DNA of 19,672 nucleotides from a virus (lineage: Duplodnaviria > Heunggongvirae > Uroviricota > Caudoviricetes), in the IMG/VR virus record IMGVR_UViG_2531839666_000030, positions 1 through 19,672 of that record, one strand, 5' to 3'. Made by a program: the position numbers and the translations under genes. This document shows, piece by piece, positions 19,305 to 19,480 of this stretch. The notes under the pieces were generated by a model. The model worked only from the letters and a program-made list of their open reading frames with translations, was not told the DNA's origin and did not search any database. Within the stretch, counting starts at the first letter, position 1. The number at the start of each line of letters is the position of its first letter.

Positions 19305-19480
19305 TTGTTTAAGGTATGCAAATGCATTACCTTACCCCCTTCAGGCGCGTGTCGTGATTTTCTAACCTGTATTTAACGGGCTTTAAAATCTGCGTGAAGC
19401 GCCTTTGTATTTTTCCCCTGGAAGCACTTCCTGAAATCCCGCAAAACCCGCCCTGAAAATTCCCGGCTTATGCTGCCGGA

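What the first reader, a model, noticed from the sequence alone, without database searches (positions are those of the whole stretch)
19305..19480. G-I intergenic region: candidate late promoter and centre-of-genome site
This 176-bp non-coding gap lies about 18.3-18.5 kb from the left end. In Mu the G-I intergenic region near the genome centre carries the strong gyrase site needed for efficient replicative transposition and the C-dependent promoter of I. In Pseudomonas Mu-like phages the same slot holds anti-CRISPR genes. Here it carries no ORF, so no anti-CRISPR cargo at this locus.
Basis: partly seen in the sequence, partly recalled or inferred. Interest (0 to 1): 0.45.

Follow-up and report, generated by a model that had tools for sequence, protein, structure and literature searches.

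The report
Mu-type gyrase site plus late promoter

Summary
Window 19305-19480 is a 176-bp gap with no credible ORF between G (18831-19304) and I (starts 19481), 18.3-18.5 kb from the prophage left end (window 993).

It is 175/176 identical to the G-I gap of Sakai prophage Sp18. A review reports that the Sakai Mu-like prophage's strong gyrase site (SGS) was the only foreign site able to replace the Mu SGS.

Two parts of the gap are under constraint among 19 close variants:
- **SGS right arm:** a 68-bp block (19339-19406, pi 0.005 against 0.075 at G third codon positions). [quoted passage not shown]
- **Late promoter:** an 18-bp box (19431-19448), a variable 20-bp spacer, then an invariant TATGCT (19469-19474). 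The same box, spacing and hexamer type occur upstream of lys. The geometry matches Mu's mapped C-dependent promoters.

There is no cargo gene here, although an Edwardsiella relative carries one in this slot.

The new point is that the -10 hexamer lies 6 nt before the I start codon, so the I mRNA may be leaderless. This is a prediction, not a shown result.

Outside the finding, a covarying tRNA-like gene with no anticodon loop lies antisense in the F-G gap.

Verdict: interpretation supported, feature real, gyrase site already known.

The parts
18831..19304 (+). Gene G (virion morphogenesis / neck protein), left border of the gap
   Evidence: Pfam Phage_tail_S 1.7e-33. 54% identical to Mu G.
19305..19480 (.). 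G-I intergenic region, 176 bp, non-coding
   Evidence: 175/176 identical to Sakai Sp18. No Pfam, PHROGs or Rfam support for any ORF or RNA.
19310..19334 (.). Imperfect palindrome TAAGGTATGCAAATGCATTACCTTA containing the predicted gyrase cleavage position (about 19324/19325). This is the core and left side of the SGS.
   Evidence: The position is inferred from Mu's annotated cut (17879/17880), which lies 21 nt before the conserved block, with no indels in the alignment. The segment evolves about neutrally (pi 0.085). That matches the report that the Mu left arm is dispensable. As RNA it folds to -17.7 kcal/mol, z -3.6, with no U tract.
19339..19406 (.). Conserved 68-bp block, the homologue of the Mu SGS right arm (phased T-tract/A-tract elements GATTTTCTAA, GTATTTAA, GCTTTAAAATC)
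   Evidence: Only 3/68 columns vary, pi 0.0046, among 19 distinct Sp18-type sequences, against 0.075 at G third codon positions. 32/45 identical to Mu 17901-17945 and 21/25 in the core; the best of 200 shuffles was 29/45. Aligns without gaps across 18 lineages.
19431..19448 (+). Activator (C-like) box CTGAAATCCCGCAAAACC of the I promoter, predicted at -50 to -33
   Evidence: Only two matches (3 mismatches or fewer) in the 50-kb Sp18 locus, upstream of lys and upstream of I, where 0.08 is expected; same result in the window. 1/18 columns variable. Its 3' end aligns with Mu ATAAyCCC, 20 nt before the hexamer.
19449..19468 (+). 20-nt promoter spacer, variable in sequence but fixed in length
   Evidence: pi 0.178, 8/20 columns variable, no length change.
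19469..19474 (+). Predicted -10 hexamer TATGCT. The predicted transcription start is 19481, the A of the I start codon.
   Evidence: 0/6 columns variable. Same distance from the box as TACGCT at lys. An xAxxxT hexamer lies 6-7 nt before the ATG in 28 of 41 distinct gap 3' ends.
19463..19479 (+). Inverted repeat CCGGC / GCCGG bracketing the hexamer. In read-through RNA it forms a hairpin that abuts the AUG.
   Evidence: -10 kcal/mol, z -2.7. Equivalent hairpins with different stem sequences occur in 7 of 9 lineages tested.
19481..19672 (+). 5' part of gene I (protease/scaffold), right border of the gap
   Evidence: Pfam Mu-like_Pro on the 64 residues visible. Same start as ECs_4973 and the PGAP calls.
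11504..11547 (+). Paralogous late promoter upstream of lys: box CTGATATTCCGCAAAGCC, 20-nt spacer, TACGCT
   Evidence: In prophages whose activator is 84% identical, the box and hexamer are kept and the spacer sequence varies at fixed length.
11082..11507 (+). C-like late activator (Mor/C family) presumed to act on both boxes
   Evidence: Pfam Mor 2.8e-32. 40% identical to Mu C and 31% to Mor. No second Mor/C protein was found among the 12 other early-region ORFs scanned.

Best explanation
The gap is a two-part cis-acting region inherited from the common ancestor of Mu-like phages.

**Part 1: the prophage's central strong gyrase site (about 19305-19406).** Host DNA gyrase is predicted to cleave near 19324 and to wrap the conserved right arm (19339-19406) around a GyrA C-terminal domain. 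This would give highly processive supercoiling that forms a plectonemic loop with the site at its apex. The loop brings the two prophage ends together for transpososome assembly and replicative transposition.

**Part 2: the late promoter of the head operon (19431-19474).** The single C-like activator (11082-11507) is predicted to bind the 18-bp box ending at -33. It would let sigma-70 RNA polymerase use the weak -10 hexamer TATGCT. No -35 element is present.

**What is shown here**
- Near-identity to the Sp18 gap.
- Homology to the Mu SGS right arm.
- Purifying selection on exactly these two elements.
- The shared box, spacer and hexamer geometry at lys and I.

**What is taken from the literature**
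- Gyrase-site function of the Sakai Mu-like prophage's SGS.
- Essentiality of the right arm.
- C-dependence and start sites of the Mu promoters.

**What is inferred**
- The exact cleavage position.
- Activator binding to the box.
- A transcription start at the A of the I ATG.
For: - **Identity with Sp18.** 175/176 identical to the Sp18 gap; the only difference is T19468C, in the promoter spacer.
- **Experimental record.** The review PMC10052514 says the Sakai Mu-like prophage SGS was the sole exception among sites tested that promoted Mu replication, and that the right arm is essential while the left arm is dispensable. PMC13284261 repeats the right-arm result. [quoted passage not shown]
- **Mu layout.** The Mu record annotates the gyrase cut 20 nt after the G stop in a 196-bp G-I gap.
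- **Homology.** The block is 32/45 identical to Mu, above all 200 shuffles, and lies at the same offset. It aligns without gaps in 18 lineages with G identity down to about 40%.
- **Constraint.** Right arm pi 0.005, box 0.029, hexamer 0. Spacer 0.18, middle segment 0.21, G third codon positions 0.075.
- **Promoter box.** It occurs only at lys and I, with identical 20-nt spacing to TAYGCT. The same footprint is seen at lys in diverged prophages.
- **Mu geometry.** The Mu Plys, PI and PP oligos give ATAAyCCC, 20 nt, hexamer, 6 nt, then +1.
- **Activator.** It is C-like.
- **Position.** 47% of the Sp18 length, against 48.7% in Mu.
Against: - **No wet-lab result for this exact sequence.** I could not read the primary papers. 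That the tested Sp18 fragment was the G-I gap rests on my memory of Oram and Pato 2004 plus the review.
- **Weak periodicity.** The 10.5-bp A/T periodicity of the window's right arm is only in the top 2-4% of windows. The Mu right arm is in the top 0.05-0.5%.
- **Diverged first element.** The first of the three family-wide TTTTRAA elements has degenerated in this lineage.
- **Box seen only twice.** It was not found upstream of the tail or mom genes of Sp18, so not all late promoters are accounted for.
- **Untested binding and start.** Binding of the activator to the box and the start site are not measured. A start at the ATG would give a leaderless mRNA for an abundant scaffold protein, which is unusual.
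Confidence: 0.8

Rival explanations
1. The promoter is real, but its -10 element is GAAAAT (19455-19460). Transcription would then start near 19467 and give a 14-nt leader that begins with the CCGGC/GCCGG hairpin, like the 5' hairpin region of the Mu PI transcript.
For: - GAAAAT matches TATAAT at 4 of 6 positions.
- Mu-type relatives use GAAAAT or CAAAAT as the hexamer.
- MAFFT aligns this stretch near Mu's CAAACT region.
- It avoids a leaderless mRNA.
Against: - GAAAAT is not conserved among close variants. Some have AAAAAT and some have GAAAAA, which lacks the final T.
- It lies only 6 nt after the box. In lys of the same phage and in Mu Plys, PI and PP the hexamer lies 20 nt after the box.
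- Other short-type lineages have no -10-like hexamer at that position, yet all have one 6-7 nt before the ATG.
Confidence: 0.2
2. The conserved 68-bp block is not mainly a gyrase site. It would instead be a binding platform for another protein (IHF, Fis, HU or a phage protein), or an upstream enhancer of the I promoter.
For: - A/T-tract repeats are typical of sites for nucleoid proteins.
- PMC3820752 reports that IHF, Fis and HU contribute to the Mu domain.
- The helical periodicity is unexceptional here.
Against: - The homologous Mu segment lies inside the 133-bp fragment that gyrase binds and cleaves.
- It corresponds to the arm whose deletion abolishes SGS activity.
- The Sakai prophage site works as an SGS in Mu.
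- In the Edwardsiella relative, a 500-bp cargo insertion separates the block from the I promoter, yet the block stays next to G.
Confidence: 0.08
3. The gap hides a small gene: a micro-ORF, the 89-aa antisense ORF or a small RNA. The conservation would reflect that product.
For: Three small ORFs exist. Two hairpins fold better than shuffles.
Against: - No Pfam, PHROGs or Rfam match.
- 1-nt indels among close relatives fall inside the antisense ORF.
- The two + strand micro-ORFs have TTG and GTG starts and no Shine-Dalgarno sequence.
- The conserved block does not coincide with either hairpin.
Confidence: 0.03

Closest known systems
Bacteriophage Mu central strong gyrase site (SGS), between genes G and I
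   Same: - Same slot, directly after the G stop.
- Same relative position in the genome (47% against 48.7%).
- Homologous right-arm block at the same offset from the annotated cut.
- Same pattern of constraint: right arm conserved, cleavage and left side free to vary.
   Different: - Only 71% identical in the best 45-nt block.
- The first TTTTAAA element is lost and an extra one (GCTTTAAAATC) is gained downstream.
- Weaker 10.5-bp A/T periodicity.
- The gap is 176 bp rather than 196 bp.
SGS of the Mu-like prophage Sp18 of E. coli O157:H7 Sakai (Oram and Pato 2004, J Bacteriol 186:4575; known to me from memory and from the review PMC10052514)
   Same: 175 of 176 bases identical, with the same flanking genes. 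This is the same element in another host strain.
   Different: - One substitution (T19468 here, C in Sp18), which lies in the promoter spacer and hairpin loop, outside the gyrase-site part.
- The prophage sits at a different chromosomal site: a Na+/H+ exchanger gene here and sorM in Sakai.
[quoted passage not shown]
   Same: - No -35 element and a weak -10 hexamer of the form yAnnCT.
- An activator site whose 3' end lies exactly 20 nt before the hexamer.
- Activator of the Mor/C family, encoded just upstream of lys.
- The same two positions in the genome (lys and I).
   Different: - The box sequence differs (GAWATYCCGCAAARCC against Mu TTAT..ATAAyCCC).
- The hexamer is 6 nt from the I ATG here. 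In Mu it is about 32 nt away and gives a leader of about 25 nt.
- No second (Mor-type) activator was found.
- No box was found for the tail or mom genes.
Anti-CRISPR locus of Pseudomonas Mu-like phages (JBD30, DMS3 and relatives)
   Same: Same genomic slot, between the G homologue and the protease/scaffold gene (PMC3993853).
   Different: No gene is present in this window. Among 77 enterobacterial-type loci, only the Edwardsiella lineage carries cargo here, and it lies on the opposite strand.
Leaderless phage mRNAs such as lambda cI from PRM (my own knowledge)
   Same: A -10 hexamer 6-7 nt before the ATG, and no Shine-Dalgarno sequence.
   Different: Not demonstrated here. The gene encodes an abundant structural protein rather than a regulator. 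The hexamer also sits in the loop of a conserved hairpin.

Membership tests
Mu-type central strong gyrase site | Lies in the non-coding region between G and I, near the middle of the prophage | tested here: met
   Gap 19305-19480, between G and I. 18.3-18.5 kb from the left end at 993. 47% of the Sp18 length, against 48.7% in Mu.
Mu-type central strong gyrase site | Sequence homology to the Mu SGS right arm, the arm essential for function | tested here: met
   32/45 identical (21/25 in the core) at the same offset from the cut; the best of 200 shuffles was 29. Gap-free family alignment.
Mu-type central strong gyrase site | Purifying selection on the right arm | tested here: met
   pi 0.0046 over 68 bp, against 0.075 at G third codon positions and 0.085-0.21 in the neighbouring gap segments.
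Mu-type central strong gyrase site | Phased (about 10.5 bp) anisotropic bendability of the right arm | tested here: inconclusive
   A/T periodicity is in the top 2-4% of windows here. The Mu positive control is in the top 0.05-0.5%. The published position matrix was not available.
Mu-type central strong gyrase site | Strong, specific gyrase cleavage and enhanced processive supercoiling | not testable with these tools
   The review reports a functional SGS in the Sakai Mu-like prophage. That gyrase cleaves this site specifically, and that the tested fragment was the G-I gap (175/176 identical to this one), rests on my memory of Oram and Pato 2004. The primary paper is not held.
Mu-type central strong gyrase site | Supports efficient replicative transposition when placed at the centre of Mu | not testable with these tools
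   The review states that the Sakai Mu-like prophage SGS was the only tested site that promoted Mu replication.
Mor/C-dependent late promoter | The phage encodes a Mor/C-family activator | tested here: met
   Window 11082-11507: Pfam Mor 2.8e-32. 40% identical to Mu C. Q-x-x-(L/M)-F motifs at both termini, like the clamp-binding motifs described for MuC.
Mor/C-dependent late promoter | Conserved upstream element shared by the phage's late promoters, at a fixed distance from a -10 hexamer, with no -35 element | tested here: met
   The box occurs only at lys and I. Spacer of 20 nt in both, as in Mu Plys, PI and PP. Box and hexamer are conserved and the spacer is variable.
Mor/C-dependent late promoter | Activator-dependent transcription start mapped downstream of the hexamer | not testable with these tools
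   No transcript data are available here. The start is predicted at 19481 by analogy with Mu.
Cargo or anti-CRISPR slot between G and I | One or more protein-coding genes inserted between G and I | tested here: not met
   No supported ORF. The gap length is typical of cargo-free relatives.

The most novel reading that the evidence does not exclude
In the Sp18-type and several other Mu-like lineages, the I promoter fires at the A of the I start codon and so makes a leaderless mRNA for the protease/scaffold protein. The inverted repeat that brackets the -10 hexamer folds, in transcripts reading through from upstream, into a hairpin that reaches the AUG. Only promoter-initiated transcripts would then be translated efficiently. 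Mu itself uses a different, leadered arrangement.

Support:
- The geometry calibrated on Mu.
- An xAxxxT hexamer 6-7 nt before the ATG in 28 of 41 distinct sequences from 8 lineages.
- No Shine-Dalgarno sequence in any of them.
- Hairpins with different stem sequences in 7 of 9 lineages tested.
Probability: 0.4. Interest if true: 0.45.

Novelty: already known. Interest (0 to 1): 0.25.

Why it matters
The Mu strong gyrase site is the reference substrate for structural and single-molecule work on DNA gyrase, and it is required for efficient Mu replication. This window adds no new kind of element.

The comparison across about 80 relatives does give three useful results:
- **A family-wide definition of what is conserved in the site.** Three phased TTTTRAA elements lie 13-55 nt to the right of the cut. 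The cleavage region itself drifts.
- **A clean separation of the gyrase site from the I promoter.** The Edwardsiella cargo insertion falls between them.
- **A testable prediction.** Many Mu-like phages may express the scaffold/protease gene from a leaderless transcript.

The result also shows that this enterobacterial prophage carries no anti-defence cargo at the slot used by Pseudomonas relatives.

Tried and rejected
- **Crude gyrase-motif scan.** I built it from the A/T versus G/C pattern of the published 133-bp consensus. It failed the positive control because the Mu SGS was not among the top sites in Mu, so I discarded it. The real position matrix (Table DS10 of PMC6379681) was truncated in the held supplement.
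- **10.5-bp A/T periodicity.** It passes the Mu control only moderately and is weak here. It is not used as evidence.
- **The perfect dyad GGAAGCACTTCC (19420-19431) as the activator site.** It is unique in the Sp18 locus and destroyed in close variants. Rejected.
- **GAAAAT as the -10 element.** Kept only as a rival, for the reasons given there.
- **A simple regular expression for TTTTRAA repeats.** It missed the window lineage. I replaced it with the multiple alignment.
- **Post-G hairpin as an intrinsic terminator.** It is stable but has no U tract, the terminator scan does not find it, and its substitutions are not compensatory.
- **The genome-contig scan.** It returned only 2 loci. The viral-contig scans supplied the comparative set.
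- **Primary papers.** The SGS papers PMC438558 and PMC1347280 are not held.
- **Literature search for the novel points.** I found no paper on leaderless I transcripts or on a tRNA-like gene in Mu-like phages.

Full report
**1. What the window is**

The window is the left half of a Mu-like prophage.
- A host Na+/H+ exchanger gene (1-1005) runs into the phage left end at 993 (TGTAACCAGG...).
- The phage genes follow in Mu order: repressor (1298-1816, minus strand), transposase A (2236-4344), B (4415-5347), Gam (6700-7230), GemA (10503-11012), one Mor/C-family activator (11082-11507), lysozyme (11579-12079), a 554-aa ORF at the position of Sp18's DNA-packaging protein (14141-15805), a 532-aa ORF at the position of its portal protein (15796-17394), F (17378-18709), G (18831-19304) and the start of I (19481).
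- The same region is present in 229 of 5426 complete E. coli genomes.
- It is the element annotated as "prophage Sp18, Mu-like phage" in O157:H7 Sakai.

**2. The observation**

- The gap 19305-19480 is 176 bp.
- It contains only a 23-aa TTG ORF, a 20-aa GTG ORF and an 89-aa antisense ORF that mostly overlaps I.
- None of these matches Pfam or PHROGs.
- Rfam finds nothing in the gap or in the equivalent regions of 20 relatives.
- Close relatives have gaps of 175, 176 or 177 bp, so single-base indels are tolerated.
- The gap lies 18,313-18,488 bp from the left end.

**3. Identity with a characterised site**

The gap differs from that of Sp18 at one position, T19468 here against C in Sp18.

What the held literature says:
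[quoted passage not shown] It also states that the SGS right arm is essential while the left arm can be deleted (PMC10052514).
- PMC13284261 repeats the right-arm result.

I could not open the primary papers. From memory, Oram and Pato (2004) amplified the central candidate sites of five Mu-like prophages, showed that E. coli gyrase cleaves each of them, and found that only the Sakai site substantially restored replication. That recollection is not a tool result.

**4. Homology with the Mu site**

- In Mu, G ends at 17859, the record annotates the gyrase cut at 17879/17880, and I starts at 18056.
- The 133-bp Mu SGS fragment used for Topo-seq and in vitro work is centred at 17878.
- Aligning the two gaps shows one strongly conserved stretch, window 19346-19390 against Mu 17901-17945. 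It is 32/45 identical and 21/25 in the core GATTTTCTAACCTGTATTTAACGGG. The best of 200 shuffles reached 29/45.
- No indel lies between this stretch and the Mu cut. The equivalent cleavage position is therefore about 19324/19325, at the centre of the imperfect palindrome TAAGGTATGCAAATGCATTACCTTA. This position is inferred, not measured.

**5. The family view**

Two scans of viral contigs gave 80 loci with a G homologue. In 77 of these I could place both G and I.
- The G-I gap is 135-238 bp in 75 of them, across G identities from 100% to about 40%.
- The exception is an Edwardsiella lineage with 676 bp.
- An alignment of 18 lineages is gap-free over about 50 columns that start about 30 nt after the G stop. 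The consensus is AAAATCTTTTAAACGC-N7-G-G-TTTTTGAACGGGTTTTGAACGGGG.
- This consists of three phased T-tract/A-tract elements, 13-55 nt to the right of the Mu cut.
- The window's lineage has lost the first element and gained a fourth (GCTTTAAAATC), as has the L033 lineage.
- In Edwardsiella, the cargo insertion lies after this block and before the I promoter. The two functions are therefore physically separable.

**6. Selection within the gap**

Nucleotide diversity among 19 distinct Sp18-type sequences:

| Segment | Coordinates | pi |
|---|---|---|
| G, third codon positions | 19005-19301 | 0.075 |
| G, first and second codon positions | 19005-19301 | 0.005 |
| Left part of the gap (includes the predicted cut) | 19305-19338 | 0.085 |
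| Right-arm block | 19339-19406 | 0.005 (3/68 columns variable) |
| Middle segment | 19407-19430 | 0.21 |
| Promoter box | 19431-19448 | 0.029 |
| Spacer | 19449-19468 | 0.18 |
| Hexamer | 19469-19474 | 0 |

The left part of the gap evolves about neutrally. The right-arm block is as constrained as non-synonymous sites. This fits the published finding that only the right arm matters. Mu-type variants show the same pattern.

**7. The late promoter**

*Mu reference geometry.* Mu's late promoters lack a -35 element and bind C at an element centred near -43.5 (PMC2582627). The oligonucleotides of PMC4461284 carry 20 nt downstream of each mapped start. They give the same layout for Plys, PI and PP: ATAAyCCC, 20 nt, a hexamer (TAGACT, CAAACT or TATCCT), 6 nt, then +1.

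*The window.*
- An 18-bp box, CTGAWATYCCGCAAARCC, occurs exactly twice: at 11504-11521 before lys and at 19431-19448 before I.
- In the 50-kb Sp18 locus these are the only matches with up to 3 mismatches, where 0.08 is expected.
- Both boxes are followed after exactly 20 nt by TAYGCTG, at 11542 and 19469.
- At lys, prophages whose activator is only 84% identical keep the box and the hexamer while the 20-nt spacer changes sequence. The same is true at I.

*The activator.* It is 40% identical to Mu C and 31% to Mor. It keeps Q-x-x-(L/M)-F motifs at both ends, like the clamp-binding motifs recently described for MuC. No second Mor/C protein was found in the early region.

I conclude that 19431-19474 is the homologue of Mu PI.

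**8. Where transcription should start**

By the Mu-calibrated geometry, +1 falls 7 nt after T19474. That is 19481, the A of the I start codon.

Supporting observations:
- 28 of 41 distinct gap 3' ends, from eight lineages including the most distant, have an xAxxxT hexamer (TATGCT, TAAGCT, TACGAT, CACACT, GACAAT, CAGAAT, CAAAAT or CACAAT) exactly 6-7 nt before the ATG.
- None of the 41 has GGAG, GAGG or AGGA between -17 and -4.
- The remaining 13, including Mu, have the hexamer about 30 nt upstream.

The hexamer is bracketed by an inverted repeat whose stem sequence differs between lineages. The repeat folds significantly better than shuffles in 7 of 9 lineages (z -2.5 to -4.4). In several lineages the fold extends into the AUG.

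This suggests a leaderless I mRNA, with read-through transcripts translationally masked.

The rival -10, GAAAAT (19455-19460), would give a 14-nt leader. It is not conserved among close variants and breaks the 20-nt rule. It remains possible, and I give it about 0.2.

**9. Checks that failed or were weak**

- My crude gyrase-motif scan failed its Mu control.
- The A/T periodicity of the right arm is unremarkable here.
- The GGAAGCACTTCC dyad is neither repeated nor conserved.
- The box is not found before the tail or mom genes of Sp18.

**10. Verdict**

- The gyrase site is already known: this is the Sp18 site in another strain.
- The promoter is a straightforward homologue of Mu PI.
- The leaderless geometry is the only part that I could not find described.
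- The most interesting thing in the neighbourhood lies outside the finding: a tRNA-like gene antisense in the F-G gap (see the items noticed in passing).

Noticed in passing
window 18711-18790, minus strand (F-G gap), with a minus-strand promoter-like site at 18829-18800: A tRNA-like gene lies antisense to the late operon (Rfam tRNA 31 bits; ARAGORN calls nothing; PGAP labels it tRNA-OTHER). By a sequence-anchor search, 56 of 82 Mu-like loci carry it (32 distinct sequences); Mu itself does not. On an alignment of 20 of them, the acceptor, D and T stems covary strongly: 96.9% of cells paired, 11 of 16 pairs with compensatory changes, and 0/500 shuffles reach the score. The anticodon arm is replaced by a hypervariable hairpin capped by tetraloops (UUCG, UCCG, UCAG), so there is no anticodon. 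A -10-like TAAAAT or TATACT lies on the minus strand just upstream of its 5' end in most lineages that carry it. I found no description in the literature.
   Followed up: partly
L003 2981-3656 (Edwardsiella anguillarum; same as L041): In this relative the G-I gap is 676 bp. It holds an AT-rich 117-aa ORF on the opposite strand (3159-3512) with a hydrophobic N-terminus and no Pfam or PHROGs match. The ORF is inserted between the conserved gyrase-site block and the I promoter. The slot can therefore take cargo in enterobacterial Mu-like phages too.
   Followed up: partly
window 19481-19670, compared with L010-L032: The gap is a mosaic boundary. G is 97-100% identical among Sp18-type prophages, while I is 68-99% identical. 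The first 25-30 codons of I are highly variable (pi 0.13 at first and second codon positions, against 0.005 in G).
   Followed up: partly
window 1-1005 and 993: The prophage left end (TGTAACCAGG) lies at 993, inside a Na+/H+ exchanger family gene whose reading frame ends in phage DNA at 1005. The insertion therefore disrupts a host gene, at a different site from Sp18 in Sakai (sorM).
   Followed up: partly
window 11082-11507 and the early region 5840-10506: Only one Mor/C-family activator was detected. It is closer to C than to Mor. Q-x-x-(L/M)-F motifs sit at both termini, like the clamp-binding motifs of MuC. The phage may therefore run a two-step rather than a three-step transcription cascade.
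   Followed up: partly
window 11026-11050: The hairpin ATCCCGC-CACAA-GCGGGAT followed by a T run lies directly after gemA. It looks like an intrinsic terminator separating the early operon from the activator gene. A TAAACT hexamer follows it.
   Followed up: no
L141 2496-2691 (E. coli STEC17-183): A 71-nt stretch of the tRNA-like element is 86% identical to a gene annotated tRNA-Tyr. That gene sits beside a second tRNA-OTHER and a Mor-family activator, in an element that also carries PerC, SSB and a RepA-type helicase. It may be a phage satellite. Related tRNA-like genes therefore occur outside Mu-like phages.
   Followed up: no
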